Source of the DNA: a plasmid
DNA length: 11,830 bases
Sequence record: NZ_CP072183.1
Strand: one strand, 5' to 3'
Below, piece after piece: positions 1 through 11,830 of the stretch. The translations under genes and the position numbers were made by a program. The notes under the pieces are model-generated. The model was not told where the DNA came from and ran no database searches. It was given only the letters and a program-made list of their open reading frames with translations. Every line of letters begins with the position of its first letter. Positions within the stretch are counted from its first letter, which is position 1.

Positions 1-1674
1 ATGGCAGATGAAGCAGTACGAGCCGTTCAAAAATGGCTCAACAAAACGTATGGTAGCGTTCCTGGCTTTGTCGCAGCTCCAGAAAACGGGCAAACGGGAT
101 GGCCAACAATTTATAGCCTAAGAATGGGATTACAGCACGAAATCGGTATTAGTGCTATTGGTGAAGGCTTTGGCGAGACGACCAAAAACGCCTTAGCACC
201 TGTTGTAGGTAGTCTGAAGCCAGGATATAAGGGGAACATTGCTCAACTCATTCAAGGGGCTTTCTGGTGCAAAGGGATTAGTCCAGTAGACTTTAATAAT
301 GAGTTCACGAATAACACCCTTAATGCTGTTAAAGAACTTCAGCAAGATGCTGGCATTGCGGCTGATGGATCTGTGACAGTGGCATTTATGGCGGCTTTGT
401 TTGACATGGCAGCTTTCGTCTTAGTTTCAAACGGCGATGCTAAGGTTCGAACCATGCAGCAAGCGCTCAACCGTAAATTCTCTGGGGAATTACAAGAATT
501 GATGCCGTGTGATGGCGTTTATCAACGAGCAACTAATACAGCGTTGATTTATGCCTTACAACGAGCAATCGGTATGAGTTCTGCGCAAGCAAATGGTAAC
601 TATGGTCCAGGGACAATTGCCGCTACACCTACTGTTAATCAGGGAGCCAATAGCGACGTTGTCCAGGTCATCCAATACGGCTTGTATGTGAACGGCTTTT
701 ATACAGGGGCATTTGATGGCTATTTTAGTTCAGACGTAGCAACGGCAGTGGTAGCTTTTCGAAAGTTTATGAATTTACCGCCATTTAATAGCACAGCTGA
801 CCTAACCGTCATCAAAGGATTGTTGACTAGCAACGGCAATACTAATCGTGATTCAAATACTTTTGATACAGCAACTCAATTAAGTGCTGCACAGGCAAAA
901 CAACTAAAGCAATTCGATTTTTCAATAGTTGCTCGTTATCTAACTGGCAGCGTTGGTGCAGGGGCTGCCGAACGTGATAAATACTTGACTTCCACGGAAC
1001 TTGCAAATCTTACTGAGGCTGGACTAAAAGTTGTGCCAATATATGAAGATGGTGGCTATGAGTTTGATTACTTTAGTCTACAGCAGGGAATTCATGACGG
1101 ATTTGTTGCAAGTAGTACTGCTGCTAAGTTAGGGTTTCCGGCTGCAACTACGATTTACTTTGCAGTTGATGTGGATGTTCAAAGTGGCGATATAGATGGC
1201 ACAATTATTTCTTATTTCCGTGGTATTAGCCAAGCTATGAACAATAGTATTTTCAAAATTGGAATATATGGAACACGGAATGTATGTAATCGGGTAACCG
1301 CTGCATCGGGGACCAATATTCTTTATTCCTACGTCGCTGATATGTCATATGGATGGAGCGGAAACCTAGGTTTTAAGATGCCTCAAAATTGGGCATTTGA
1401 TCAGTTTGTGGAATACTCAGCTGCAGGTGTTGATATTGACCAAGTAGCTTCTTCAGGAAAAGACCAGGGAAGCGGGACTTTCAAAGTGGATCCTAACGCA
1501 GTACGCCTTGAGTTTGCGCGAACCTTAATTAACAATGCCTATCAGTTAAAACCATTACAACCAGATATTCCGACCTTAGAGGTTGATGGCCCTGAAATTC
1601 ATGTATCAACTATTTTGGCAGAGTTTTATCTTAAACTATCAAGTACTTTTGCGAGCAACGATAGTGGAGCCTAG
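1..1674 (+). CDS. N-terminal fragment of a cell-wall hydrolase-like protein: three ~90-aa PG_binding_1-like repeats followed by a DUF1906/Rv2525c-like glycoside-hydrolase-like domain (FDFSIVARYLTG...IYFAVDVD...IGIYGTRN). No signal peptide. The ORF starts exactly at the window edge, so the true N-terminus may lie upstream.
   Basis: 557-codon open frame. Three internal repeats with the PG-binding pattern (L..G..G..V..LQ..L..). The conserved DUF1906-like motifs are recognised from memory of the family, not from a search. Confidence 0.75.
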   Translation: MADEAVRAVQKWLNKTYGSVPGFVAAPENGQTGWPTIYSLRMGLQHEIGISAIGEGFGETTKNALAPVVGSLKPGYKGNIAQLIQGAFWCKGISPVDFNNEFTNNTLNAVKELQQDAGIAADGSVTVAFMAALFDMAAFVLVSNGDAKVRTMQQALNRKFSGELQELMPCDGVYQRATNTALIYALQRAIGMSSAQANGNYGPGTIAATPTVNQGANSDVVQVIQYGLYVNGFYTGAFDGYFSSDVATAVVAFRKFMNLPPFNSTADLTVIKGLLTSNGNTNRDSNTFDTATQLSAAQAKQLKQFDFSIVARYLTGSVGAGAAERDKYLTSTELANLTEAGLKVVPIYEDGGYEFDYFSLQQGIHDGFVASSTAAKLGFPAATTIYFAVDVDVQSGDIDGTIISYFRGISQAMNNSIFKIGIYGTRNVCNRVTAASGTNILYSYVADMSYGWSGNLGFKMPQNWAFDQFVEYSAAGVDIDQVASSGKDQGSGTFKVDPNAVRLEFARTLINNAYQLKPLQPDIPTLEVDGPEIHVSTILAEFYLKLSSTFASNDSGA

Positions 1675-1697
1675 ATTGCAATAATAAAGTTACCACC
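1670..1697. repeat. IS30-family left terminal inverted repeat
   Basis: Pairs with 2693-2720 in inverted orientation, 25/28 identical. Confidence 0.75.
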
Positions 1698-2610
1698 TAG
1701 AAAGAGGCTTGCTCACTGCTTGAACTGGGGTTTGCCAACGGAGACATTTTCTAGGTTTGTTATTGATAAGCGCTGTGGCTTGTTGAATATCGGTCTCTGA
1801 AACCTGATCAAACTGTGTTCCCTTCGGGAAATAGTAGCGAAGTTCTCGATTGAACCGTTCATTTGTGCCCCGTTCATTCGGGTGATAGGCGTGGCAAAAG
1901 TAAACCGGTATCCGATAGCGCTTTGTAAGCGCCTGATCGCAGGAAAACTCTTTACCGTGATCAACCGTCACTGATCGAACCGGACCCGGAAAGTCCACCA
2001 TCAGTCTTGCAAATCCCTTGAGAACAGCATTTTGTGATAAGTTTTCAAGCTTAGTTGTCGCCATTAAACGTGTCACCCGATCGACAATGGTCAAAACAGC
2101 AGCCTTTGACCCGCGACCACCGCGAACTGTATCCATCTCTAAATGTCCTTTTTCGGTTCGCCGATTAGCTGACTCACTGCGAATCTCAATTGAGGTGCCT
2201 ACTGCTTGGTTATAGCGCGACCGAAGGTCTTGTCTTCTTTTATGACGTTTACCGTGATCAAAGAGTTGGCTTGGCTGAAAATCGACTTGTCTTTGATAAA
2301 TCCAGTGGTAAATCGTGTGTGGCGCACAGTGAACGGCATAACCGACCATTTCAGGGGACCAACCTAGGTTTAGCTTCTCAGTTACCATCCGCTTCAACTT
2401 AGGCGTTAAAATCGAGTGCCGACCACAACGATGCCGACAAGTATCGGCATGATCCTGAGCTATAATGGCGCAGTAATCACCTTCAGGGCAACGGTGAAGC
2501 TCATGCCTAATAGAAATACGAGAGCGGCCTAAGGTCGCGGCGATGTATTGAATCGTGTGGTGTTGCATCAGTTCTATCTGAGATCGTTCAATTAAGGTTA
2601 TAATGGCCAT
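1690..2610 (-). CDS. IS30-family DDE transposase (306 aa)
   Basis: N-terminal HTH region (IERSQIELMQHHTIQYIAATLGRSRISI) and a C-terminal integrase-core/DDE region (...DHGKEF... YFCHAYHPNERGTNE) typical of IS30-family transposases. It is bounded by the IS inverted repeats. Confidence 0.9.
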   Translation of the reverse strand: MAIITLIERSQIELMQHHTIQYIAATLGRSRISIRHELHRCPEGDYCAIIAQDHADTCRHRCGRHSILTPKLKRMVTEKLNLGWSPEMVGYAVHCAPHTIYHWIYQRQVDFQPSQLFDHGKRHKRRQDLRSRYNQAVGTSIEIRSESANRRTEKGHLEMDTVRGGRGSKAAVLTIVDRVTRLMATTKLENLSQNAVLKGFARLMVDFPGPVRSVTVDHGKEFSCDQALTKRYRIPVYFCHAYHPNERGTNERFNRELRYYFPKGTQFDQVSETDIQQATALINNKPRKCLRWQTPVQAVSKPLSRW

Positions 2611-2692
2611 GGGACCTGTCCTTCTCTCTAGATGGTATGTTATGCAAACACCATTTTAGCAAGAACGGACAGGTCTTTTTTCACATTTTCTG

Positions 2693-2720
2693 GGTGGTAA
2701 CTTTAATTATGCAATCTAGG
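2693..2720. repeat. IS30-family right terminal inverted repeat
   Basis: Reverse complement matches 1670-1697. Confidence 0.75.
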
Positions 2721-3206
2721 GGAGCGCCACTAGGTTTTACAATTTCTGATGGTAAATTAGGAACTCAAGTACAATCTGAGATCGATAAATTCAAAGAAGC
2801 ACACGAAGCCGCAAAGAATTTTGACTTTACATCTTTGATTGGTACACTAGGGCCAATGATTGGCAATGGAAATCTAAAAGTTGGAATGTCAACCAAAAAT
2901 GGAATGCTAGGATTTAAAGTGGTCTGTGAATCTACAACAACAGTTGTTACCAACGGACAACAGGAAAATGTTACAACTTCGTTGAGTATCGAGATATACA
3001 CTAAGCCAAATGGATTAGGGATCCCAGCTGAAGATTATAAACCAATTTATGTTCCTGTTTCTGAACATGAACCAAACTTGGGGTGGATTCCTTGGGCAGC
3101 AGGGGCGTTTGTATTAATAGTAACAATTATTATGGCTCCAGAAGTAGCGGCTACTCTTATTGGAGCTGCTGCTAAACTATTGCCAGCGACGTTCATTGCT
3201 GCTTAG
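2709..3206 (+). CDS. C-terminal fragment of the IS-split hydrolase gene. It would be translated only from an ATG lying inside the IS right end. Ends with a hydrophobic TM-like segment (WIPWAAGAFVLIVTIIMAPEVAATLIGAAAKLL).
   Basis: The frame from 2721 is continuous with the frame of ORF 1..1674 once the IS is removed. The track ORF start (2637) and the ATG at 2709 both lie within IS sequence. No independent RBS. Confidence 0.5.
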   Translation: MQSRGAPLGFTISDGKLGTQVQSEIDKFKEAHEAAKNFDFTSLIGTLGPMIGNGNLKVGMSTKNGMLGFKVVCESTTTVVTNGQQENVTTSLSIEIYTKPNGLGIPAEDYKPIYVPVSEHEPNLGWIPWAAGAFVLIVTIIMAPEVAATLIGAAAKLLPATFIAA

Positions 3207-3225
3207 CTTTTAAGGAGGTGATTAA

Positions 3226-3729
3226 TTGGGATTGTTACCATTAATACTTGGTGTACTGGGATATTCCATATTGTTGAGCTCGCTTGCTTTAACAATAATG
3301 GTGCGGCACCAAACTTCTGATCAAAAACGTAGCGAAGCCTATATAAAAGTGGCTAAGTATCTGGGCGAAAACCCAACTTTATTTAAGAAGGTAAACCAAT
3401 TAGTCAAATTGGAAGGTGCAACAAAGCTTATGGCATTCGTGTTCTTTTTTGGCGGATGGATAGTCTATTCAATAAATAGCTTTTTGATTGACTCTTTGGA
3501 CGAGGGAGTTCGTGTAATCATTTTGTGGGCATCGATTGCCTTATTTGTTATTTTGACTATTGTGCAGATGATGCTAGAATTTCGGCACAAAAAATTGTTG
3601 GCTTTTCCTCTTTCTAATATTTCTCTAGTAGAGAATACTGCAGGAGAGAAACGTTGGATTCTCAGCAAGATACTGTTAATGATCGGGACCGTGATATTGA
3701 CAATATGGCTACAACTTGTGGCTCAATGA
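3226..3729 (+). CDS. Small integral membrane protein (167 aa, about 4 predicted TM helices), function unknown. TTG start.
   Basis: RBS AGGAGG at 3213-3218, 7 nt before TTG 3226. Four hydrophobic stretches. Followed by a strong terminator. Confidence 0.7.
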   Translation: MGLLPLILGVLGYSILLSSLALTIMVRHQTSDQKRSEAYIKVAKYLGENPTLFKKVNQLVKLEGATKLMAFVFFFGGWIVYSINSFLIDSLDEGVRVIILWASIALFVILTIVQMMLEFRHKKLLAFPLSNISLVENTAGEKRWILSKILLMIGTVILTIWLQLVAQ

Positions 3730-3832
3730 TTACTAACTGATAAACTTTCAAAATTTGTTCCGTTAGATTGTACCCTAACGATTCGTCCAGAAACGTCTTG
3801 AAACAAAGCCTAAAATCCGATTCAAATAAGTG

Positions 3833-3870
3833 ACCCGAAACGATGTCTAAGATCGTTTCGGGTATTTTTA
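3833..3870 (+). terminator. Rho-independent terminator (12-bp perfect stem acccgaaacgat/atcgtttcgggt, then ATTTTTA)
   Basis: Perfect inverted repeat 3833-3844 / 3852-3863 with a T-rich tail, about 100 nt after the stop of the 3226-3729 gene. Confidence 0.7.
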
Positions 3871-3891
3871 TGGGCAGCCATCCGTAACCGT

Positions 3892-3900
3892 TGCTATAAT
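3892..3900 (+). promoter_or_regulatory. TG-extended -10 element (tgcTATAAT) for the HTH gene
   Basis: Consensus TATAAT preceded by TGn, 34 nt upstream of the ATG at 3934. No convincing -35. Confidence 0.35.
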
Positions 3901-3933
3901 CGTCATTAGAATGCACGAGATGAGGACGGTTAT

Positions 3934-4482
3934 ATGAGTAAGACCATCAAAGAGTTAGCAAATGAATTAGGCATAAGCAAGCAAGCGGTGAGTAAGAAAC
4001 TAACTGCCAACTTCCGAGCCAACCACGTAACAACCGTTACCACCAACGGACGCCAGAAGTTGGTGGTTGATGATGATGGTGTATTTGAACTGAAGTCCCA
4101 ATACATAGAAGATCATAACCAACAACAGGGTGCCAACCATTCAACCGCCAACGTTGTCGACGACAACACTAACTTGGTTGATGAACTAAAAAAGCGCATA
4201 TCGGCTCAGGAGAATGAACTATCTCAAAAAAATAAGCAAATTCTTGCTAAGGATTCCCAATTGGAGAACATGCAGAAACTACTTGATCAATCGCAACAAC
4301 TCCAACTAATGGCCGAAAACAAACTTAAGAAGCTGGAAGCACCCCAAAACAACCCTGAGAGCGGTTCTGATCTAGCAAATGACCAAACGCATGAACGAGC
4401 GCCAGAGGCGCCTGTAAAGGCTGAAAGTAGCCCAGAACAACCGCCGTCTTTTTGGCAGAGATTGTTTGGTACTGGAAAGTAA
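3934..4482 (+). CDS. HTH DNA-binding protein with a Q/E/K-rich coiled-coil C-terminal half (182 aa). Resembles the small replication-associated or accessory HTH proteins (RepB/DUF536-like) found next to Rep_3 replicons in Lactobacillaceae plasmids.
   Basis: RBS GAGG about 7 nt upstream of the ATG. N-terminus MSKTIKELANELGISKQAVSKKL is a classic HTH. A TG-extended -10 (tgcTATAAT) lies at 3892-3900. The family assignment is from memory. Confidence 0.7.
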   Translation: MSKTIKELANELGISKQAVSKKLTANFRANHVTTVTTNGRQKLVVDDDGVFELKSQYIEDHNQQQGANHSTANVVDDNTNLVDELKKRISAQENELSQKNKQILAKDSQLENMQKLLDQSQQLQLMAENKLKKLEAPQNNPESGSDLANDQTHERAPEAPVKAESSPEQPPSFWQRLFGTGK

Positions 4483-4483
4483 C

Positions 4484-4513
4484 AAATAGCCACCGTAGTC
4501 ACGGTGGCTATTT
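4484..4513. terminator. Perfect 13-bp-stem hairpin (aaatagccaccgt-agtc-acggtggctattt) immediately after the HTH gene stop. Likely a transcription terminator or stabilising hairpin.
   Basis: Perfect inverted repeat 4484-4496 / 4501-4513. The U-tract is limited to the TTT that belongs to the stem. Confidence 0.5.
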
Positions 4514-4620
4514 CACTAAGTCTTAAAATCCAGAAATCCGTCAGTACAGGTCGTGATCAAGTAGACCAGTGGCTATTTACAAAGTGGGTTGCACGAGGCT
4601 AGGCAGGGTGAGCACTGCAG

Positions 4621-4634
4621 CTAATGGCCATTAG
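4621..4634. promoter_or_regulatory. Perfect 14-bp palindrome ctaatggccattag, upstream of the type I toxin promoter
   Basis: Exactly self-complementary. Candidate operator. Confidence 0.3.
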
Positions 4635-4707
4635 TCAACTGCGCAGATTCCATAACGAAGTTTTGACTATTTTTGATTGGTAATTAAAGTGGTGTTTACT
4701 GCTTTTT

Positions 4708-4716
4708 TGGTATACT
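4708..4716 (+). promoter_or_regulatory. TG-extended -10 (tggTATACT), candidate promoter of the Fst-like toxin mRNA
   Basis: TGn plus TATACT 56 nt upstream of the ATG at 4772. A cgcg-tgatac-cgcg hairpin in the predicted 5'UTR could sequester the RBS. Confidence 0.3.
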
Positions 4717-4768
4717 AGTTTAGTCGCTACGCCTTTTCGCGTGATACCGCGCCTAAAGGTGGTGATAG

Positions 4769-4786
4769 TTCATGAATTCATTCGAT
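4769..4786. repeat. Direct repeat copy a (ttcatGaattcattcgat), spanning the toxin start codon
   Basis: 17/18 identical to 4977-4994. Confidence 0.6.
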
Positions 4787-4861
4787 AAAGCGATCATCGC
4801 GCCGCTGCTTGTCGGTGTGTTTCTGCTTTTGTTGAAATACGCGCTGGATAACCACAAGTAG
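4772..4861 (+). CDS. Fst/par-family-like type I toxin peptide (29 aa: MNSFDKAIIAPLLVGVFLLLLKYALDNHK)
   Basis: RBS AAGGTGGTGA 7 nt upstream. Single TM helix with a charged C-tail. The core IIAPLLVGVFL closely resembles pAD1 Fst VIAPIFVGLVL. Not in the ORF track because it is under 60 aa. Confidence 0.6.
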   Translation: MNSFDKAIIAPLLVGVFLLLLKYALDNHK

Positions 4862-4896
4862 TGTGAGTAGCGACTAATTCCAGCACCTGGCACCGG

Positions 4897-4930
4897 GTCA
4901 TCATCTTCTTGCGGAGATGATGGCTTTTTT
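4897..4930 (+). terminator. Rho-independent terminator for the toxin mRNA (8-bp stem catcatct/agatgatg, loop tcttgcgg, then CTTTTTT)
   Basis: Hairpin plus T6, about 36 nt after the toxin stop. Confidence 0.6.
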
Positions 4931-4935
4931 CGACA

Positions 4936-5005
4936 CAAAAACCCATGCAGCTTGCGGACTACACGGGTTTGTGATGTTCATAAATTCATTCGATTAGGTT
5001 CATTT
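4936..5005 (-). ncRNA. Predicted antisense RNA antitoxin (RNA II-like, about 60-70 nt) of the Fst-like type I TA module
   Basis: Minus-strand promoter candidates: TATAAT (plus 5014-5019) and TGcTAAAAT (plus 5002-5010). It contains the complement of direct repeat b. It ends at a minus-strand terminator (plus 4937-4968: a 7-bp stem that includes a G-U pair, then U5). The architecture mirrors pAD1 par. Confidence 0.4.
4977..4994. repeat. Direct repeat copy b (ttcatAaattcattcgat), within the predicted antisense RNA
   Basis: 17/18 identical to 4769-4786. A transcript from the minus strand across this copy is antisense to the toxin translation initiation region. Confidence 0.6.
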
Positions 5006-5030
5006 TAGCATAGATTATAACCAGTTGCAT

Positions 5031-5810
5031 TTATAAATCTTTGCTTGAGGATCTGCGTGCAAAGTTATTGTGAATTTCAACTTGAACTACTTGTCGTCCT
5101 CGCTTGGCTTGAAACAATTCCAAATCCATATCATCAATTTTCATATTTATTTCTTCGATCGATCTAATTAGAACGCTTTTTTTCAAATCCTTGTAAGCGT
5201 AGTTTTTGGGGGCGCCTAGCCACTTTTTAAAATCATCCGGAGCGCCTTGGACTATCGGGATTGATTGACCATTATCTTTATCAGACTCACGCATCAATTT
5301 ATACAGCAAAATAGCATATTTGCTTTTGAGCTGGACAGTGTCATGTAAAAGATACTGAGTATAGTGACCATTATCCTTAAGACGTAAAAGAAAAGGCGCA
5401 AAATCTTCATTAATTTTGAGTTCTATTTTACCATTTTCCCAAACCTTGGCACGCTCAAACCAACCAGTCATCGTGATTGATCTTTCTACCTCGTTGTAAA
5501 TTCTGACACTCTTAGCACGCATGTCATTGAGATTTTGAGCTAATTGAGAATATGTACGACCGCTACGTTTTAATTCGAGTACGTTAGATAATTCGTACAT
5601 AGATGTTTGAATGACATTGAAGTTCTTGTCATCAGGCTTAATTTTGGAAATTACATAATCCATAATTTTAAGTTCACGCGCATTCAAGTCATGGCGAGCT
5701 TTAGTGATAAGGTCGTTGTGTTCAGCAACCAAAAAATAGCGTTGATCGTTTATTTCGTCTTTGTTAAAGTTACGGTCATTTTTCCATAAGAGCTTCTTTA
5801 CATCTACCAT
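5031..5810 (-). CDS. rep: Rep_3-family (RepB/RepA-type) theta-plasmid replication initiator protein, 259 aa
   Basis: RBS GAGGTGA 6 nt before the ATG at 5810. N-terminal region (LVAEHNDLITKARHDLNARELKIMDYVISKI) typical of Rep_3 initiators of LAB theta plasmids. Iterons lie immediately upstream. Confidence 0.9.
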   Translation of the reverse strand: MVDVKKLLWKNDRNFNKDEINDQRYFLVAEHNDLITKARHDLNARELKIMDYVISKIKPDDKNFNVIQTSMYELSNVLELKRSGRTYSQLAQNLNDMRAKSVRIYNEVERSITMTGWFERAKVWENGKIELKINEDFAPFLLRLKDNGHYTQYLLHDTVQLKSKYAILLYKLMRESDKDNGQSIPIVQGAPDDFKKWLGAPKNYAYKDLKKSVLIRSIEEINMKIDDMDLELFQAKRGRQVVQVEIHNNFARRSSSKDL

Positions 5811-5840
5811 ACAGAATCACCTCAAGAGGTATTATACATT

Positions 5841-5868
5841 AAAAGGAGAACAATTTTGTCTCCTTTTA
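5841..5868. promoter_or_regulatory. Perfect hairpin/inverted repeat (aaaaggaga-caattttg-tctcctttt) between the rep start and the iterons. Candidate Rep autoregulatory operator overlapping the rep promoter (-10 TATAAT on the minus strand at plus 5831-5836).
   Basis: 9-bp perfect arms. Position is typical of Rep autorepression sites. Confidence 0.45.
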
Positions 5869-5869
5869 A

Positions 5870-5972
5870 TTTTTACCCCCCTATCGTGTGCTTTTTACCC
5901 CCCTATCGTGTGCTTTTTACCCCCCTATCGTGTGCTTTTTACCCCCCTATCGTGTGCTTTTTACCCCCCTAT
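5870..5972. repeat. Iterons: 4 full plus 1 partial tandem copy of the 22-bp unit tttttacccccctatcgtgtgc (replication origin of the Rep_3 replicon)
   Basis: Exact tandem repeats at 5870, 5892, 5914 and 5936, plus a 15-bp partial at 5958. A 22-bp period (two helical turns) directly upstream of rep. Confidence 0.9.
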
Positions 5973-6013
5973 TAGTCGATTTAAACGCGTGGTTGAGCCA
6001 TTCTCGTCTCCCT

Positions 6014-6053
6014 AAGTACTTAAAGTATTTAAAAGTATTTAGAAGTATATATA
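6014..6053. repeat. AT-rich tandem 9-10-bp repeats (aagtactta / aagtattta / aaagtattta / gaagtatata). Candidate DNA-unwinding element of the origin.
   Basis: Four degenerate tandem units adjacent to the iterons. Confidence 0.5.
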
Positions 6054-6055
6054 AC

Positions 6056-6295
6056 GCGCGCGAGGCTTGTGTTTGTGTTTTGCTTGTTAATAACCACAAA
6101 AGACCTTGGGGAGAACCTCTTCCCAAACCCCATACAAAATTCTGGTCGCGTTGCTCCCTAAAAAGGTGTGGCTGCGCCACATTTAACTCCGGCTTCGCCT
6201 GCGCGCCGTTGGCTTGCCCTAGCGCGCTTCGCTTGCGTGGCTCAGAAGAACCTCAGCTGAAGCTTCGGTAGGGCTATCGCCATTCACCGACAAAA
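6056..6295. other. GC-rich non-coding island (well above the local approx. 35-40% GC) with nested short inverted repeats (tgtggc-tgc-gccaca; gaagcttc). Function unknown, possibly an oriT-like or recombination-site remnant.
   Basis: Composition shift visible by eye. No plausible ORF on either strand. Confidence 0.4.
6269..6287. repeat. 19-bp direct repeat copy 1 (tagggctaTcgccattcac)
   Basis: 18/19 identical to 7071-7089. The two copies bracket the terminator / RHH gene / upstream region. Confidence 0.5.
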
Positions 6296-6356
6296 GCACA
6301 TTGCCTAAATTTGATCAATTACTAAAGATGTTTATTGGTGTCAAGAACCTATGCTG

Positions 6357-6403
6357 ATAAAAACGGCTTAGAACGCAAATATGAGCGTTCTAAGCCGTTT
6401 TTG
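6357..6403. terminator. Bidirectional rho-independent terminator (14-bp perfect stem acggcttagaacgc/gcgttctaagccgt, A5 on the left and T5 on the right)
   Basis: Perfect inverted repeat flanked by A-run and T-run. About 70 nt downstream of the minus-strand small ORF 6474-6653. Confidence 0.75.
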
Positions 6404-6473
6404 ATGTAGAGAGCATTAATTATACCCACCAGAGTAAGAAACGCTAGTACAGGCCCTTTAGCGCTTTTTAAAC

Positions 6474-6653
6474 TCACTGCTTTGATAACCAGTCCTCAAT
6501 GATATTTGATTTGGTCACGCTGACATGGTACTTAGCCAGTTCCGGATTTTGATTCACTTCCTGTTGCTTTTTTGCGACCAGCTGATTCAATTTTGCAATC
6601 GCCTGATCGGTCAAAGTGAACATGACCCGGTGTGTTTCGTCTTGCTTTGTCAT
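6474..6653 (-). CDS. Small (59 aa) ribbon-helix-helix-like DNA-binding protein (MTKQDETHRVMFTLTDQAIAKLNQLVAKK...). Candidate partition or copy-control regulator (ParR/CopG-like).
   Basis: Found by hand, below the track's size cut-off. Strong RBS (AGGAGG, 8 nt before the ATG at 6653). Predicted beta-strand then helix pattern of RHH proteins. Terminated by the bidirectional terminator. Confidence 0.55.
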   Translation of the reverse strand: MTKQDETHRVMFTLTDQAIAKLNQLVAKKQQEVNQNPELAKYHVSVTKSNIIEDWLSKQ

Positions 6654-6979
6654 TTCAAAAACCTCCTGAATGGTGATGATGAATGGTCGTCTAGCAAACC
6701 AACGCGGCGTTTAAATAGCGTCACGTTACCGGACGAGTTTTGGTCAACAGTTGCGACGGCCCTGGTCAAAACGTGAACGTTTTTCTCCAAGCAAAAGATC
6801 AAAATAAATTGAGTTGCTATCCAATCCTTCTCAAAAATCGGCTCGCCTGGATCGACCACTTTTTGAGACTGCTTGGAACGCGCCTAAAATCATGAAAGAG
6901 CATAAGGCAAAACTGACCCCAAAATTGGGGTAAACCGCAGTGCGGTTTGGTTTGTCGTGATAGCACGTTGGGGTCAAAA

Positions 6980-7116
6980 GGTGTAGTAAAACGCCATTTA
7001 CTCCACGTGAAAAAATTACGAACGTGTAGTAAAACGCGTTTTACTACACGTGGATGATGCCAGTTACGACAAGGGCTAGCGCCATTCACTACACGTAAAC
7101 AGTTTTTTACTACACC
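6980..7116. promoter_or_regulatory. Cluster of six copies of the 9-bp motif TACTACACG/CGTGTAGTA, arranged as an imperfect palindrome (6980-7008), a perfect 30-bp palindrome (7022-7051: acgtgtagtaaaacgcgttttactacacgt) and a direct pair (7087-7116). Operator or centromere-like protein-binding array.
   Basis: Repeats read directly. Spacing between centres is about 43 and 65 bp. Lies upstream of the RHH-like gene. Confidence 0.5.
7071..7089. repeat. 19-bp direct repeat copy 2 (aagggctaGcgccattcac)
   Basis: See 6269-6287. Confidence 0.5.
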
Positions 7117-7468
7117 TGAGCAAGATTATTCGCTTATTGGGCATAAACGAACGATTTTTGGTGTTTCAGCGCGTACAGCTATATAGTAGCTTGTCTGCAA
7201 CTCGGCATACGTATAGTGAGTTGCTCGAATTGAAGCGTAGATGTTGCTTTAACAGAAACTGTCGAGATGCTTGTAAATTAACAGAACGTTGAATTAGCCG
7301 AAGCTTTAAAGTTGCACAAATAGCAACTGATATGTTTATCAAATGCAACTCATATATTACACAATGTTCAACTTGAATGAAACTCTAAATGCAAGTGGGT
7401 GTCAACACCACGTGTAACATCGTGAGAAGGTCAGCGAAAAGATGGCGGCAGATGCTGTTTAAATTTTG

Positions 7469-7526
7469 ATTTTGAAGGGGGACTCACCTCCCTTCAAAAT
7501 AACAGGGGGATTGGGGGCGTGCCCCC
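7469..7526. other. Two adjacent G/C-rich hairpins (ttgaaggggg-actcac-ctcccttcaa and ttggggg-cgtg-cccccaa) with no U-tracts
   Basis: 8-bp and 7-bp perfect stems. Not followed by T-runs on either strand. Confidence 0.4.
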
Positions 7527-7573
7527 AAACAAAATTGACGATCAGCGCAGCTGAGATTCTGTCAATTCATCGT

Positions 7574-7589
7574 AAGTGTACGTACACTT
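7574..7589. promoter_or_regulatory. Perfect 16-bp palindrome aagtgtacgtacactt, about 240 bp upstream of the toxin operon promoter
   Basis: Exactly self-complementary. Operator-like. Confidence 0.4.
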
Positions 7590-7827
7590 GCAAATCTCGC
7601 GACAGTAGAAAAACGTCAAAAAGGAAAATTTGGCATTTACGGATTTTGCTTTTTATTTGGGATTCATAGTTAACACTAGATCACTTAAAAATAACGGATT
7701 TTCAATGGAGACGCTAATTACTTTTGAGCTATTCAAGCACATTTTTCTTAGCACATTTAGCGACTTCTTCGGCGTGCTTCGTTCTAGATCAATTCACTTA
7801 GGCAGTGGTTTTATAGGCTAATAATAA

Positions 7828-7856
7828 TTGAGCTTTATGAGTTGTTCAGCTATAAA
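7828..7856 (+). promoter_or_regulatory. Candidate sigma-A promoter of the toxin-immunity operon (TTGAGC-17 bp-TATAAA)
   Basis: -35 at 7828-7833 and -10 at 7851-7856. This would put the TSS downstream of the track ATG at 7842. Confidence 0.45.
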
Positions 7857-7928
7857 ATAGCGACTATACTGCTCAATGTATACAGTTATTGCCAGGCACT
7901 GAAGAACTTTGGAAAGAAGATAATAGGC

Positions 7929-8831
7929 GTGAAAAAGTGGAAAGTTATTGGGCTAATATTCGGGCTCTTTCTAGTCAATTTGCTTGGGTATTCAACAATT
8001 GTATCCGCAGACACAACACAATCTTTAAATCAAATTGTTTCAACTGAAAGCCGTATTAGCGATAACAATACTCAACTGACCAATGCTGACAAGTTATCAA
8101 GAAGTAATCCAGAAAATGGACAACCAATTATCGCTTCTGGAAAACAAGTGGTACTGAATAATAGTCATGGCAATGGCATAAGTTCTCGTGCAGAAGTTCC
8201 TGTTACAAATATTACCTGGCACTTATCGGAAGAATACATATCCGGAAAATTCAGAGTCAATTTCTGGATTGATTCTATTGAGGGTGTCCCGCCAGCCGCA
8301 GTTGATGTGCAAATTGAATTTAATACTGAGCCTACCCTTGCAGGTCCGGTGAATGCCAATACGCTGGCACCCATTAGCAAAATAGGCGGTTTGCAAACAG
8401 GATTACTTGGTTTTACAGAATTGCCAGCCAAAACCACATTTTTTAACGTTGCTGGCGCTGTTGGATTTATAGGAGTTAATGGAGCGGCTAATGTAAAACC
8501 AATCCCACCAACGGCCATCTATTTACAAAATAAAATAGGACAGAATTTCCCTGAATATGTTGATCCCGTGTCTAAAAAAGATGCAGAAACACCTATTAAT
8601 ACTACCTGGACTAAGTTATCAAAATCTCCTAGTTGGTCATCAAAAGATAGATATATTTATATTAAAACGTTCAGTGAAACATATGGCAATCAATCTGCAG
8701 ATTTTTGGAGTTCTCGAGAAGTGCATCATATTCGCCCGAGAGTTTATGGCGGAACAAATGACTTTAATAATTTGATGCCGGTGTTAACACCAAATCATCG
8801 GTTGATCACCGCGTGGTTTAACAACTATTGA
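7929..8831 (+). CDS. Secreted toxin with an N-terminal Sec signal peptide (MKKWKVIGLIFGLFLVNLLGYSTIVSA|DT) and a C-terminal HNH/EndoVII-fold DNase domain of the colicin E9/pyocin (AHH/SHH-like) type: EVHHIRPRVYGGTNDFNNLMPVLTPNHRLI
   Basis: The longest ORF starts at ATG 7842, but a GTG at 7929 gives a canonical signal peptide and lies downstream of the predicted promoter. The C-terminal motif aligns position-by-position with the colicin E9 HNH motif [32 protein letters not shown], recalled from memory. The stop overlaps the RBS of the next gene. Confidence 0.75.
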   Translation: MKKWKVIGLIFGLFLVNLLGYSTIVSADTTQSLNQIVSTESRISDNNTQLTNADKLSRSNPENGQPIIASGKQVVLNNSHGNGISSRAEVPVTNITWHLSEEYISGKFRVNFWIDSIEGVPPAAVDVQIEFNTEPTLAGPVNANTLAPISKIGGLQTGLLGFTELPAKTTFFNVAGAVGFIGVNGAANVKPIPPTAIYLQNKIGQNFPEYVDPVSKKDAETPINTTWTKLSKSPSWSSKDRYIYIKTFSETYGNQSADFWSSREVHHIRPRVYGGTNDFNNLMPVLTPNHRLITAWFNNY

Positions 8832-8843
8832 GGAGGAACTCAT

Positions 8844-9347
8844 TTGGAATCTCTAATTCGGCGAAGAATTAATTCTTTAATAAAGGTGACGAAAAATGGG
8901 GAAAAAGCGCTCTCAACATTCCAATTAGATGGAGATGTGCAAAATGTTTCTTTTAAGATAGAACCTCCTGCACACGCTGATGATATAGAAAAAATAAAAA
9001 GGTGGAACCTTCCACAGGATTACATTGAGTTTCTCTCGATTACTAATGGACTATTTTTATTTGACACAACAATCGAAGGGATTCCTATGGGATATACGTG
9101 TGAAGTCTATTCAATTAGAAAAATGATTAAAGAAAAAGAGGCACTGCCTAAAAGTTTTGTAAATAAAGTACCCATTCTCCATATAAGGGATGTCGGAGAT
9201 ATGTATATTGATATAGAGAAGTATCGGTTAGGAAAATCATATCTAACTCATCCCGGAATAGAAGCAGACCGATATTTCGATTTTTCATTTTCAAAATGGC
9301 TCGATAAATATATGGTGGCGGGAGGCAATGAGTTTTGGAATTTCTGA
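8844..9347 (+). CDS. SUKH-1 (SMI1/KNR4) family immunity protein, 167 aa. TTG start.
   Basis: RBS GAGGAGG at 8830-8836, 7 nt before TTG 8844. Hallmark SUKH-1 motifs W-LPqDYieFL...NG (KRWNLPQDYIEFLSITNGLFLFD) and a C-terminal IRDVGDMYIDI. Translationally coupled to the nuclease gene. Confidence 0.85.
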   Translation: MESLIRRRINSLIKVTKNGEKALSTFQLDGDVQNVSFKIEPPAHADDIEKIKRWNLPQDYIEFLSITNGLFLFDTTIEGIPMGYTCEVYSIRKMIKEKEALPKSFVNKVPILHIRDVGDMYIDIEKYRLGKSYLTHPGIEADRYFDFSFSKWLDKYMVAGGNEFWNF

Positions 9348-9406
9348 TAACAAAGTTGGCCAAGTAGGAAACCAAAAACTTCGAATTGAGATTGATTAGT
9401 GTGCTT

Positions 9407-9437
9407 AATAAGGCTGTCAAAGAAAAACAGCCTTATT
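9407..9437. terminator. Hairpin with an 11-bp perfect stem (aataaggctgt / acagccttatt) between convergent genes. Candidate bidirectional terminator with weak U-tracts.
   Basis: Perfect inverted repeat. Located after the immunity gene stop and after the stop of the minus-strand gene at 9585. Confidence 0.4.
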
Positions 9438-9584
9438 ATCACAAGCTAGATCTCATTAGAGTATAAGATAACATTTATGAAAACTAACGACTTTTGCTTA
9501 AAAACCGCCTAAATTACGTGTTTGTAAGCATAAGAGACAGTTTGAGTGTACTGACTGTCAAGGTGGGGGACAGTTAGTGTAATT

Positions 9585-10343
9585 TCAGGAATTTATAAAG
9601 GAGATTGGTAAGTCTAAATCGACAGTATTATACGTTATAACTAGACCATTGGCAGAGCTTGCGGGAACGCCCTCAATAGTTATTGCAATGGTCTTTTTCT
9701 TTTTTGCTGGAATAGAAATTTTTGAGAATGGCTTTACTTTTAATGAGTTACCTTCTGAATCAGAAACAGTAAGGTATTTGGTATCTAATACGACAGGGAC
9801 AAGGTAGTGATCATTTTTAACCGTTATGTTAAAAGCAGTGGTGTTTTTTATACTGTTCTTGTTTTGTTTTTTAGGGGTAATGGTCATGCTAAATAAAACA
9901 TGCGACTTTCCATTGTACTTAAACTCTTCTCCCATAGGAATTGGCTTTCTTGAAATGGCACTTTTCATAATATGATAACCAATGGGAACAGAAACCACTT
10001 TGGTTTGTATATTATTGTTATGCTTAACCCGTATTGCAAGCTTAGAGGAGGAGGGCTTTAATTCCGAAACGGTATTTTCTCTTTTATTCGAAATGCCAGA
10101 AGAAAGTTGATTCTCTTTAAGATCACTTATCGTATATTTGCTTTTTGGAGAGGTAGCAAATGTGACAGCAATACTGTTACTGTGCTTAATAAGTTTGACT
10201 TTTTTAATAGTAATGGTGGGACGTTCAAACTTATTTGAGGCCGTTCCTTCAGGGTTCATGCGCCATAACACCGCAAGAACAATTACTCCAATTATGCTGA
10301 CAGCCAAGATGAGCCAAAAGTAACGTTTGTTTTTTAAAAGCAT
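9585..10343 (-). CDS. N-terminally membrane-anchored extracytoplasmic protein (about 252 aa), function unknown. Likely beta-rich, DUF4352-like.
   Basis: Start chosen at ATG (plus 10341-10343) with GGAGG 7 nt upstream. The track's TTG at 10349 abuts the SD and was not used. One TM helix (FWLILAVSIIGVIVLAVLW), then a K/S/T/N-rich soluble domain. Confidence 0.75.
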   Translation of the reverse strand: MLLKNKRYFWLILAVSIIGVIVLAVLWRMNPEGTASNKFERPTITIKKVKLIKHSNSIAVTFATSPKSKYTISDLKENQLSSGISNKRENTVSELKPSSSKLAIRVKHNNNIQTKVVSVPIGYHIMKSAISRKPIPMGEEFKYNGKSHVLFSMTITPKKQNKNSIKNTTAFNITVKNDHYLVPVVLDTKYLTVSDSEGNSLKVKPFSKISIPAKKKKTIAITIEGVPASSANGLVITYNTVDLDLPISFINS

Positions 10344-10394
10344 TGACAAGCCTCCGTGAATGCGGTTTCATTTTAAGAAAAAGGGGGAATTAAA

Positions 10395-11480
10395 TTGCGA
10401 AAAGTATGGGCATATATCACTATGATAGCTGCAGCCTTAGCGATAATTCAAGTTCAAACGGTAAGTGTAAGTGCTGATAGTATGGCAAATCCTTTGGCAG
10501 CGAATAGCCATGTTTTACCAAAGAATGATATTGTTTTGACTAACCAGACGACAACACAACAGTTTTTGAATGAAATCATTCGACAATATCAGTATTCTTA
10601 TCCCGATTTTAAAGGGAGTGTCAAAGCTTATACACCTGATCAATATCAGGATTTAAAAGAAGGAAAGAAAGTTCAAGGAATTACGTCCGAATATCTTGCG
10701 AAACTGAATAAATCGTCTAATCATCTATCTGTGAGGACGGTATCACCTGTGTCAAACCCCAATTCGGCGCCGTACAGTTCCGTTGGGGTTTTGAGCACGT
10801 GGTTTTCGATGGCAAATGGTGTCATGGTCATTAACTCACCATACCTTGACAGTTCGTATAAAAAAATCATCTCTAACTCAAATGGCACAGAGCTGAGCAG
10901 TGGAACTTCTGGCGGTACTGGATTTAGCATTGGAGTAGACCGTATAGGGACAGCAGCACACATGTTATATGATGGTCATTATATTTCTGGAGGAATTATT
11001 AACTTTGGTGATAGTCAAGCAAATCATCAAGGGGTCGGTTACGGAGTATTGAATAGATTGATAGTGCCACAGGCATGGATTAATAATTCAACAGCTACTT
11101 CGAATGATTACGGGGCTGCAATTGTCTCTATGAAGTCTGGTAGTATGCCTGCGGGTCTTAATTTAAATACGAACCCTGCTGATACGATGGCAGCAAGATC
11201 CATTGGATTCCCTGGCGATCCGCAATCAGGGTACGAACTTCAAGGAGTCATGGTTCAATCAAGTGGGACTGTCACACCCTTTTCAGAGGACCCACTAGGA
11301 ATATATATTTCACAACAAATTAATTCGTATCATGGCATGTCGGGAGGTCCATTACTTGATGGCAACAATTCGGTTATCGGAATAAACATTCTTGCTTGGT
11401 CGAACGTGCAAGGACAAGAGTATCAGTGGGGATTTCGACGAATGAATAGTGGAGTTGCGGGATTCTTGAGAAATTATTAG
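10395..11480 (+). CDS. Secreted trypsin-like (chymotrypsin-fold, S1 family) serine peptidase, 361 aa, with a signal peptide
   Basis: RBS AAGGGGGAA before TTG 10395. Signal peptide MRKVWAYITMIAAALAIIQVQTVSVSA|DS. Catalytic triad motifs in canonical order: GTAAHM (His), NDYGAAIV (Asp), GMSGGPLL (Ser). Confidence 0.85.
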   Translation: MRKVWAYITMIAAALAIIQVQTVSVSADSMANPLAANSHVLPKNDIVLTNQTTTQQFLNEIIRQYQYSYPDFKGSVKAYTPDQYQDLKEGKKVQGITSEYLAKLNKSSNHLSVRTVSPVSNPNSAPYSSVGVLSTWFSMANGVMVINSPYLDSSYKKIISNSNGTELSSGTSGGTGFSIGVDRIGTAAHMLYDGHYISGGIINFGDSQANHQGVGYGVLNRLIVPQAWINNSTATSNDYGAAIVSMKSGSMPAGLNLNTNPADTMAARSIGFPGDPQSGYELQGVMVQSSGTVTPFSEDPLGIYISQQINSYHGMSGGPLLDGNNSVIGINILAWSNVQGQEYQWGFRRMNSGVAGFLRNY

Positions 11481-11652
11481 TCCTTGTCTAGTCTATCCTA
11501 AAAAAACCAGCGCTAAATGAGATAGCACAAACATTTGGAAGGTGAAATTGAGCTTGCGCCCACATTTTCATAGTCGTCGATACATGTCTAACCAAGTCCA
11601 TGAGCGTTCGATGATCCATCGTTGTGGCAATACTTTAAATATAGACATTAAG

Positions 11653-11693
11653 AATGAGGCAACTTCAACACTATGTGAGGGCCTCATTTTTTT
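11653..11693 (+). terminator. Candidate rho-independent terminator (stem aatgaggc/gcctcatt with a large loop, then T7)
   Basis: 8-bp stem plus T7, about 170 nt after the peptidase stop. The loop is unusually long (20 nt). Confidence 0.4.
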
Positions 11694-11830
11694 GCTAAGT
11701 TCAAAATAAAAGGATTATTTGTGGATCAGGGTTGCCTTTCGAAGCTTTGAAGAGATGAAATGAATCCGAACATATGTTTGCTTTTTGTGACGGCAGACGT
11801 GCTGTCTAAAACAAAAAAGGAGACTTTAAA

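What the first reader, a model, noticed from the sequence alone, without database searches (positions are those of the whole stretch)
1660..2730. IS30-family element has split a large hydrolase gene in frame, with the IS end supplying the stop codon
The IS ends are defined by 28-bp imperfect inverted repeats at 1670-1697 and 2693-2720, flanked by GGAG at 1666-1669 and 2721-2724. ORF 1..1674 terminates at a TAG that is part of the IS terminus. Removing the IS plus one GGAG fuses it, codon to codon, to a 162-codon open frame (2721-3206). A 4-bp duplication is longer than the 2-3 bp usually quoted for IS30-family members, which is worth noting. The ancestral about-717-aa protein would combine PG-binding repeats, a DUF1906 hydrolase-like domain and a C-terminal TM anchor. 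The ATG at 2709, inside the right IR, could allow independent expression of the C-terminal fragment.
Basis: seen in the sequence. Interest (0 to 1): 0.55.

Follow-up and report, generated by a model that had tools for sequence, protein, structure and literature searches.

The report
Insertion sequence splits plasmid cell-wall hydrolase gene
A common 1,051-bp jumping gene of lactic acid bacteria has recently landed inside a cell-wall hydrolase gene on a small Lacticaseibacillus paracasei plasmid and cut it short, which is an ordinary gene-disruption event that public sequences fully explain.

Summary
The window is a complete circular plasmid. Deleting 1670-2724 (1,051-bp IS plus one GGAG) gives 10,775 bp. 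That sequence matches L. paracasei JCM 8130 plasmid pLBPC-2 with 4 SNPs and no indels. The two flanks fuse into its annotated 716-aa 'glycoside hydrolase domain-containing protein' at 100% identity.

The element belongs to the IS30 family:
- NCBIfam IS30 transposase model, 227 bits against a cut-off of 80.
- Catalytic spacing D160-(56)-D217-(33)-E251.
- 34-nt terminal inverted repeats, 88% complementary.

Its transposase is only about 41-42% identical to the nearest named family, ISLpl1. The TAG at 1672-1674 is bases 3-5 of the IS end. The truncated product is exactly residues 1-557 with no foreign residues.

The 4-bp duplication is a property of this IS, not a quirk of this site. Of 19 non-redundant copies, 9 have exact 4-bp flanking repeats, 2 have 3 bp and 8 have none.

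The ATG at 2709 is in frame, but nothing supports an outward promoter. The same disrupted allele occurs in at least six other public assemblies.

Verdict: real, recent and ordinary. Low interest. The minor points are the 4-bp stagger and the recurrent inactivation of this gene on related plasmids.

The parts
1..1674 (+). 5' part of the interrupted hydrolase gene. It encodes a truncated 557-aa product: PG_binding_1 repeats, the Rv2525c-like glycoside-hydrolase-like domain at aa 301-501, and the first ~16 residues of the Ybfg_C match (aa 541-557).
   Evidence: ORF list. Pfam hits. Identical to nt 1-1669 of the intact CDS of pLBPC-2.
1666..1669 (.). Left copy of the 4-bp target-site duplication, GGAG.
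   Evidence: Sequence. The empty site in pLBPC-2 has a single GGAG.
1670..2720 (-). Complete 1,051-bp IS30-family insertion sequence. The transposase is on the minus strand.
   Evidence: Identical (100%) full-length copies in 8 listed L. paracasei plasmid records (7 contiguous; H24 as two joined pieces) and about 100 records at 95% or more. The ends CCTAG...CTAGG are constant while the flanks vary.
1670..1703 (.). Terminal inverted repeat at the transposase-distal end. It contains the TAG at 1672-1674 that ends the hydrolase ORF.
   Evidence: 34-nt inverted repeat, 88% complementary.
1690..2610 (-). Transposase gene, 306 aa, with DDE triad D160, D217 and E251.
   Evidence: NCBIfam NF033563 transpos_IS30, 227 bits. 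Pfam rve. D-(56)-D-(33)-E spacing. Annotated as 'IS30 family transposase' WP_003574021.1 in identical copies.
2687..2720 (.). Terminal inverted repeat at the transposase-proximal end. It contains the in-frame ATG at 2709.
2721..2724 (.). Right copy of the 4-bp target-site duplication, GGAG.
2721..3206 (+). 3' remnant of the hydrolase gene (161 codons plus stop). It holds the rest of the Ybfg_C domain and the C-terminal membrane-spanning segment.
   Evidence: Pfam Ybfg_C. Hydrophobic segment at about aa 674-706 of the fused protein. Identical to the 3' end of the intact CDS.
3226..3729 (+). Conserved 167-aa membrane-protein gene 20 nt downstream of the hydrolase stop. It is probably co-transcribed and therefore exposed to polarity from the insertion. 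This is an inference.
   Evidence: ORF. The same gene follows the hydrolase gene or its remnants in every related plasmid inspected.

Best explanation
A 1,051-bp IS30-family insertion sequence transposed recently into the gene for a 716-aa putative cell-wall hydrolase on a pLBPC-2-type theta-replicating plasmid of Lacticaseibacillus paracasei.

Shown:
- The IS is a common passenger of Lactobacillaceae plasmids.
- The hydrolase carries peptidoglycan-binding repeats, an Rv2525c-like glycoside-hydrolase-like domain, a Ybfg_C domain and a C-terminal membrane segment.
- The insertion duplicated 4 bp of target (GGAG).
- The IS lies antiparallel to the gene. Its terminal CCTAG puts a TAG in frame one codon after the junction.
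- The gene now encodes exactly residues 1-557, because codon 557 changes from GCG to GCC and both encode Ala.
- The last 159 residues are lost from that product. They comprise most of the Ybfg_C domain and the membrane segment.

Inferred:
- The truncated protein is non-functional or mislocalised.
- The 3' remnant and the downstream membrane-protein gene are separated from their promoter.
For: - Empty site: the window minus 1670-2724 equals pLBPC-2 (10,775 bp) with 4 SNPs and no indel. The fused ORF equals its CDS exactly.
- Five plasmids match the excised junction at 100%.
- IS identity: 100% identical copies in 8 listed plasmid records.
- Family: IS30 HMM at 227 bits and D160-(56)-D217-(33)-E251. 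This fits the D-(54-61)-D-(33)-E motif quoted for the family (PMC2516522).
- IS boundaries and duplication length: 19 non-redundant copies all end in CCTAG/CTAGG with variable flanks. Nine have exact 4-bp direct repeats (GGAG, GGAA, ATAG, TTGT, TTAA, ATTT, TTTT twice, AGAT). About 0.1 would be expected by chance.
- The Ybfg_C match spans aa 541-652 of the fusion, across the break at 556/557.
- The event is not an assembly artefact. The same junction is present in six other public assemblies.
- Copy-out/paste-in is described for the IS30 family in PMC5821093 and PMC9927407.
Against: - Nothing contradicts the structural account.
- The functional consequences (loss of activity, polarity) are inferred and not measured.
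- The catalytic domain at aa 301-501 is intact, so the truncated product might retain activity.
- No IR-IR circle or dimer junction was found to confirm the transposition route or a 4-bp spacer.
- Two copies show only 3-bp repeats, so the stagger may not be strictly 4.
Confidence: 0.95

Rival explanations
1. The split gene still works as two polypeptides. The N-terminal 557-aa enzyme is made from the original start. The C-terminal anchor fragment is translated from ATG 2709 (MQSR followed by 161 aa) or ATG 2637. Its transcript would come from read-through or from an outward promoter in the IS end.
For: - ATG 2709 and ATG 2637 are in frame with the remnant, and the frame is open from 2637.
- No terminator-like site lies on the + strand inside the IS, so read-through transcription is conceivable.
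- The disrupted allele persists in several samples.
Against: - No promoter-like site lies in 2610-2720 on the + strand.
- The only ribosome-binding-like motif before 2709 is GGGTGG at a spacing of 11 nt, and there is none before 2637.
- The break falls inside one Pfam domain, Ybfg_C at aa 541-652. That makes reassembly of two fragments unlikely.
Confidence: 0.07
2. The insertion is a selected loss of function. The intact hydrolase is costly or autolytic for the host, and IS insertion is one of several recurrent ways of silencing it.
For: - The same IS inserted independently in a 94.6%-identical (aa) allele at aa ~441-443, with TSD GGAA.
- 3' remnants abut IS6 elements in two other plasmids.
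- Two pLBPC-2-like plasmids carry different 1-bp deletions in the gene and have no annotated CDS.
- The disrupted allele occurs on at least 10 contigs.
- The idea that IS elements lower plasmid cost by disrupting harmful genes is cited in PMC12504390.
Against: - At least five plasmids keep the gene intact and identical.
- The 1-bp deletions may be sequencing errors.
- IS-rich Lactobacillaceae plasmids accumulate neutral insertions.
- No fitness data exist.
Confidence: 0.25
3. The two flanks are separate genes, or the IS arrived by homologous recombination or as part of a larger composite element rather than by simple transposition. The GGAG repeat would then be coincidental.
For: Eight of 19 copies of this IS elsewhere lack flanking repeats, so recombination between copies does happen.
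Against: - The window differs from pLBPC-2 by exactly 1,055 bp (1,051 + 4) at one point and by 4 SNPs elsewhere.
- The flanks fuse into an annotated single CDS.
- A single Pfam domain spans the junction.
Confidence: 0.01

Closest known systems
ISLpl1 (IS30 family, Lactiplantibacillus plantarum; Nicoloff and Bringel 2003, cited in PMC12504390) and ISLsa1
   Same: - About 1 kb with a single ~306-aa DDE transposase.
- Terminal inverted repeats of about 30 bp.
- Plasmid-borne and spread among lactic acid bacteria.
- These are the best named matches by tblastn.
   Different: - Only 41-42% (ISLpl1 family) and 40% (ISLsa1 family) amino-acid identity, so this is a different IS.
- NCBI annotation gives it only the generic name 'IS30 family transposase'.
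- ISfinder surveys of L. paracasei list ISLpl1 and ISPp1 as their IS30-family hits (PMC9818903). ISPp1 may therefore be its ISfinder name. This is a lead and could not be tested here.
IS30 (E. coli) and ISApl1, the studied prototypes of the family
   Same: - DDE spacing D-(54-61)-D-(33)-E.
- Single ORF and terminal inverted repeats.
- Presumed copy-out/paste-in transposition via a circle whose IR-IR spacer equals the duplication length (PMC5821093, PMC9927407).
   Different: - 31-33% amino-acid identity.
- Those elements make 2-bp duplications (PMC5821093, PMC9927407). This IS makes 4 bp.
- The transposase is about 80 aa shorter than that of IS30 (from my own knowledge).
IS1630 of Mycoplasma fermentans (IS30-type element with long duplications)
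   Same: It shows that duplication length is not fixed within the IS30 family. IS1630 copies are flanked by duplications of 16-26 bp (PMC3317919).
   Different: IS1630 duplicates long, variable inverted-repeat targets. The IS here gives a short, nearly constant 4-bp duplication.
Bacillus subtilis YbfG-type proteins (PG_binding_1 + Rv2525c_GlyHyd-like + Ybfg_C)
   Same: The intact 716-aa protein has the same three Pfam domains in the same order. It also matches phage endolysin families.
   Different: - No solved structure was detectable by sequence.
- The enzymatic activity of this plasmid protein is untested.
- In this window it is truncated inside Ybfg_C.

Membership tests
IS30 family of insertion sequences | Transposase homologous to IS30-family transposases | tested here: met
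   NCBIfam NF033563 transpos_IS30 (equivalog), E 3e-67, 227 bits against a cut-off of 80, covering profile positions 3-267 of 267. The next best, IS481, scores 64.7 bits against a cut-off of 224.
IS30 family of insertion sequences | DDE catalytic triad with spacing D-(54-61 aa)-D-(33 aa)-E (PMC2516522) | tested here: met
   D160-(56)-D217-(33)-E251, in the contexts HLEMDTV, VTVDHGKEF and RGTNERFNRELR, inside the Pfam rve match at aa 154-244.
IS30 family of insertion sequences | N-terminal helix-turn-helix DNA-binding domain | tested here: inconclusive
   Pfam HTH_38 matches aa 5-40 below threshold only (E 0.052, 13.7 bits against a cut-off of 27). HTH_23 gives E 0.016.
IS30 family of insertion sequences | About 1-1.7 kb, with one ORF filling most of the element and terminal inverted repeats of about 20-30 bp (typical values recalled from ISfinder, my own knowledge) | tested here: met
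   The element is 1,051 bp. A 921-nt ORF fills 88% of it. The inverted repeat is 25/28 matches, extending to 34 nt at 88%.
IS30 family of insertion sequences | Target-site duplication of 2-3 bp. This is typical of the family but not defining, because IS1630 is an accepted member with 16-26 bp (PMC3317919). | tested here: not met
   The duplication is 4 bp here, by comparison with the empty site. It is also 4 bp in 8 further copies, 3 bp in 2, and absent in 8. I treat this as a variant trait of this IS lineage, not as grounds for exclusion.
IS30 family of insertion sequences | Preference for imperfectly palindromic targets with a GC-rich centre and AT-rich flanks (PMC9927407, citing Kiss 2007) | tested here: inconclusive
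   The target here lies in a 6-bp inverted repeat, TAGTGG-AGCG-CCACTA, but the duplication is offset 2 nt from its centre. The nine reconstructed targets show no clear consensus by eye.
IS30 family of insertion sequences | Copy-out/paste-in transposition through a circle or (IS)2 junction with abutted ends | not testable with these tools
   A search for abutted ends with a 0-8 nt spacer found nothing in metagenome contigs or in the fetched loci. Absence is uninformative, since such junctions are transient.
YbfG-like peptidoglycan-binding glycoside-hydrolase-like proteins | PG_binding_1 repeats, then Rv2525c_GlyHyd-like (PF08924), then Ybfg_C (PF21015), in that order | tested here: met
   Fused protein: PF01471 at 62 bits, PF08924 at 144 bits (aa 301-501), and PF21015 at 27.9 bits against a cut-off of 27 (aa 541-652).
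YbfG-like peptidoglycan-binding glycoside-hydrolase-like proteins | Demonstrated cell-wall hydrolase activity | not testable with these tools
   Only similarity to PHROG endolysin families is available (phrog_13480, E 1e-19). No solved relative was found by sequence.

The most novel reading that the evidence does not exclude
This IS would represent a distinct Lactobacillaceae sub-lineage of the IS30 family whose transposase makes a 4-nt rather than a 2-3-nt staggered target cut, which predicts a 4-bp spacer in its circle junction. Its repeated hits on the YbfG-like hydrolase gene would reflect selection to silence a costly, possibly autolytic, plasmid gene. The hits are two independent insertions, alongside IS6-linked truncations and two frameshifts in related plasmids.
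Probability: 0.2. Interest if true: 0.35.

Novelty: new member of a known kind. Interest (0 to 1): 0.15.

Why it matters
It matters little beyond annotation.
- It shows that ORF 1-1674 and ORF 2721-3206 are two halves of one pseudogenised gene and should not be annotated as separate proteins.
- It shows that the window is a pLBPC-2-type plasmid carrying one extra IS.
- It records that this widespread Lactobacillaceae IS30-family element makes 4-bp duplications. That helps when delimiting its copies and when inferring the geometry of its transposition intermediate.
- The recurrent decay of the hydrolase gene could be a small, testable case of IS-mediated reduction of plasmid cost.

Tried and rejected
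1. Alternative phasing of the IS ends. An IS of 1,052-1,053 bp with a 2-3-bp duplication is arithmetically possible from the single site. It is rejected because 19 copies all end exactly at CCTAG/CTAGG with variable neighbouring bases.
2. Identity with ISLpl1. Rejected, since identity is only 41-42% at the amino-acid level.
3. The original ISLpl1 paper could not be read. Literature searches for a published duplication length or name for this IS gave nothing specific.
4. A search for this exact junction in PLSDB found no record that spans it. It was then found in other assemblies through the exact truncated protein.
5. A search for an IR-IR circle or dimer junction found none.
6. The outward promoter in the IS end: the consensus scan found none.
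7. A sequence search of solved structures with the hydrolase gave no hit.
8. Structure prediction and the large protein searches were not used, because the question was settled by DNA comparison.
Full report
**Observation**

Reading the window confirms every coordinate in the finding.
- GGAG lies at 1666-1669 and again at 2721-2724.
- Between them lies a 1,051-bp segment whose ends are inverted repeats. Positions 1670-1697 and the reverse complement of 2693-2720 agree at 25 of 28 positions.
- The repeat finder extends the repeat to 34 nt at 88% complementarity, 1670-1703 and 2687-2720.
- The segment carries one long ORF on the minus strand, 1690-2610, 306 aa.
- ORF 1-1674 ends at TAG 1672-1674, which is bases 3-5 of the terminal CCTAG.
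- Joining base 1669 to base 2725 gives an uninterrupted 2,151-nt ORF of 716 aa plus stop.

**The empty site**

The junction with the IS and one GGAG removed was searched against PLSDB. It matched five plasmids at 100% over all 1,082 nt and two more at 99.9%.

One of the five is pLBPC-2 of Lacticaseibacillus paracasei JCM 8130 (NZ_AP012543.1, 10,775 bp). It annotates a single 2,151-nt CDS there, WP_003572855.1, 'glycoside hydrolase domain-containing protein'.

The window has 11,830 bp, which is 10,775 + 1,051 + 4. After deleting 1670-2724 and rotating, it matches the reverse complement of pLBPC-2 with 4 substitutions and no indel. The fused ORF is identical to that CDS.

So the window is a whole circular plasmid, and the insertion added exactly the IS plus 4 bp.

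**What the element is**

- The 306-aa protein matches the NCBIfam equivalog model for IS30-family transposases at 227 bits against a cut-off of 80.
- It matches Pfam rve.
- It has the triad D160-(56)-D217-(33)-E251. This is the D-(54-61)-D-(33)-E spacing quoted for the family (PMC2516522).
- The N-terminal helix-turn-helix is seen only below threshold.
- By tblastn, the nearest named families are ISLpl1 (41-42% identity) and ISLsa1 (40%). IS30 and ISApl1 are at 31-33%. It is therefore a distinct member of the family.
- NCBI annotation calls identical copies simply 'IS30 family transposase'.
- The IS is common. 113 plasmid records match it, 61 of them at 99% or more. Most are Lacticaseibacillus, but Lactiplantibacillus, Levilactobacillus, Pediococcus, Liquorilactobacillus and Weissella also carry it.
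- ISfinder-based surveys of L. paracasei list ISLpl1 and ISPp1 as their IS30-family hits (PMC9818903). ISPp1 may be its ISfinder name, which I could not check.

**The 4-bp duplication**

From one site alone the ends could be phased differently, for example 1,052 bp with a 3-bp duplication. I therefore collected other copies from four whole plasmids and from a scan of genome contigs.

All 19 non-redundant copies end at CCTAG...CTAGG, and the neighbouring bases vary.
- Nine have exact 4-bp flanking repeats: GGAG, GGAA, ATAG, TTGT, TTAA, ATTT, TTTT twice and AGAT.
- Two have 3-bp repeats.
- Eight have none, as expected after recombination between copies.

About 0.1 four-base matches would be expected by chance. 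Four base pairs is therefore the usual stagger of this IS.

The prototypes differ. ISApl1 and IS30 give 2 bp (PMC5821093, PMC9927407). The family does tolerate other lengths, since IS1630 gives 16-26 bp (PMC3317919). I treat the 4 bp as a lineage trait and not as grounds for excluding it from the family.

In the copy-out/paste-in model, the spacer between abutted ends in the circle generally equals the duplication length (PMC5821093). A 4-bp spacer is therefore predicted. I searched for such junctions and found none.

**What was hit**

The intact protein has these features:
- PG_binding_1 repeats;
- an Rv2525c-like glycoside-hydrolase-like domain (PF08924, formerly DUF1906) at aa 301-501;
- a Ybfg_C domain at aa 541-652;
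- a strongly hydrophobic C-terminal segment at about aa 674-706.

It resembles phage endolysin families. No solved relative is detectable by sequence.

The break at residue 556/557 falls inside Ybfg_C. That is independent evidence that the flanks belong together.

Codon 557 changes from GCG to GCC, both Ala, and is followed at once by the TAG of the IS. The product is therefore exactly residues 1-557, with no IS-encoded tail. It keeps the catalytic-type domain. It loses most of Ybfg_C and the membrane segment. Loss of function or mislocalisation is an inference.

**The C-terminal remnant**

- ATG 2709 lies in the IS end and is in frame. The frame is in fact open from ATG 2637.
- The consensus scan finds no promoter-like site in 2610-2720 on the + strand, and no + strand terminator inside the IS.
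- The only ribosome-binding-like motif is GGGTGG, 11 nt before 2709.

Expression by read-through cannot be excluded, but nothing supports it.

A conserved 167-aa membrane-protein gene starts 20 nt after the hydrolase stop. It accompanies the hydrolase gene or its remnants in every plasmid examined. It may suffer polarity from the insertion, which is also an inference.

**Age and spread**

The IS is 100% identical to copies on other L. paracasei plasmids. The duplication is perfect, and the backbone differs from pLBPC-2 by 4 SNPs. The event is therefore recent.

No PLSDB record contains this junction. The exact 557-aa product is nonetheless encoded on at least 10 contigs of other public assemblies. 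The six I inspected have the same junction, and five of those contigs break inside the IS, as short-read assemblies do. It is a circulating plasmid variant and not an artefact.

**Side observation on recurrent decay**

- In plasmid NZ_CP136126.1, the same IS (100% identical) sits in a 94.6%-identical allele at aa ~441-443, with a GGAA duplication.
- In two larger plasmids, 3' remnants abut IS6 elements.
- Two pLBPC-2-like plasmids carry different 1-bp deletions and lack an annotated CDS. These could be sequencing errors.

This is compatible with selection against the gene, and equally with neutral decay on IS-rich plasmids.

**Verdict**

It is a textbook IS insertion that existing public sequences explain fully. 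The only slightly unusual trait is the consistent 4-bp duplication for an IS30-family member. Interest is low.

Noticed in passing
window 1-11830 (whole): The window is a complete circular plasmid. It equals L. paracasei pLBPC-2 (10,775 bp) plus 1,055 bp. The only other differences are 4 substitutions, at window positions 9390, 9966, 10369 and 10370.
   Followed up: yes
window 5870-5972, next to 5031-5810 (-): There are 4.7 perfect copies of a 22-bp unit (TTTTTACCCCCCTATCGTGTGC) just upstream of the Rep3-type initiator gene. These are probably the iterons of a theta-type origin.
   Followed up: no
window 7842-8831 (+) and 8844-9347 (+): A 329-aa protein with a C-terminal HNH motif is followed directly by an SMI1/KNR4 (SUKH) family protein. 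The arrangement resembles a toxin-immunity pair.
   Followed up: no
L006 (NZ_CP136126.1) 9914-11868: The same IS, 100% identical, inserted independently into a 94.6%-identical (aa) allele of the hydrolase gene at aa ~441-443, with a 4-bp duplication GGAA. The remaining upstream stub is then cut by an IS6 element.
   Followed up: yes
L034 (pWX5) and L035 (pMGB0625-2), hydrolase gene nt ~1508 and ~1261: Two otherwise near-identical pLBPC-2-type plasmids have different single-base deletions in the hydrolase gene (TT to T, and GG to G) and no annotated CDS there. These are either real frameshift pseudogenes or sequencing errors.
   Followed up: partly
L029-L033 (five other Lactobacillaceae plasmids): 3' remnants of related hydrolase alleles, of various lengths, are widespread. 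Two abut IS6-family elements (L030, L031). The downstream 167-aa membrane-protein gene is retained intact in all of them.
   Followed up: partly
window 1662-1667 and 2727-2732: The target lies inside a short inverted repeat. The empty site reads TAGTGG-AGCG-CCACTA. The duplicated GGAG is offset 2 nt from the centre of symmetry. IS30-family elements are reported to prefer palindromic targets (PMC9927407). The nine reconstructed targets of this IS show no obvious consensus.
   Followed up: partly
window 1-120 and fused protein aa 674-706: The hydrolase has peptidoglycan-binding repeats but no signal-peptide-like hydrophobic N-terminus. Its only strong hydrophobic segment is C-terminal. How the wall-binding part would reach the cell wall is unclear.
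   Followed up: no
L003 10205-11278 and L004 18980-19940: Variant copies of the IS are still flanked by 4-bp duplications (TTAA, TTGT). One is 1,074 bp because of a short internal duplication near the left end. The other is 961 bp with a 90-bp internal deletion. These changes must therefore have arisen after insertion.
   Followed up: no
L023-L028 (ENA and Logan assemblies): The exact truncated 557-aa product and the same hydrolase-IS junction occur in at least six other public assemblies, with 10 contigs on record. Five of the six contigs end inside the IS.
   Followed up: yes
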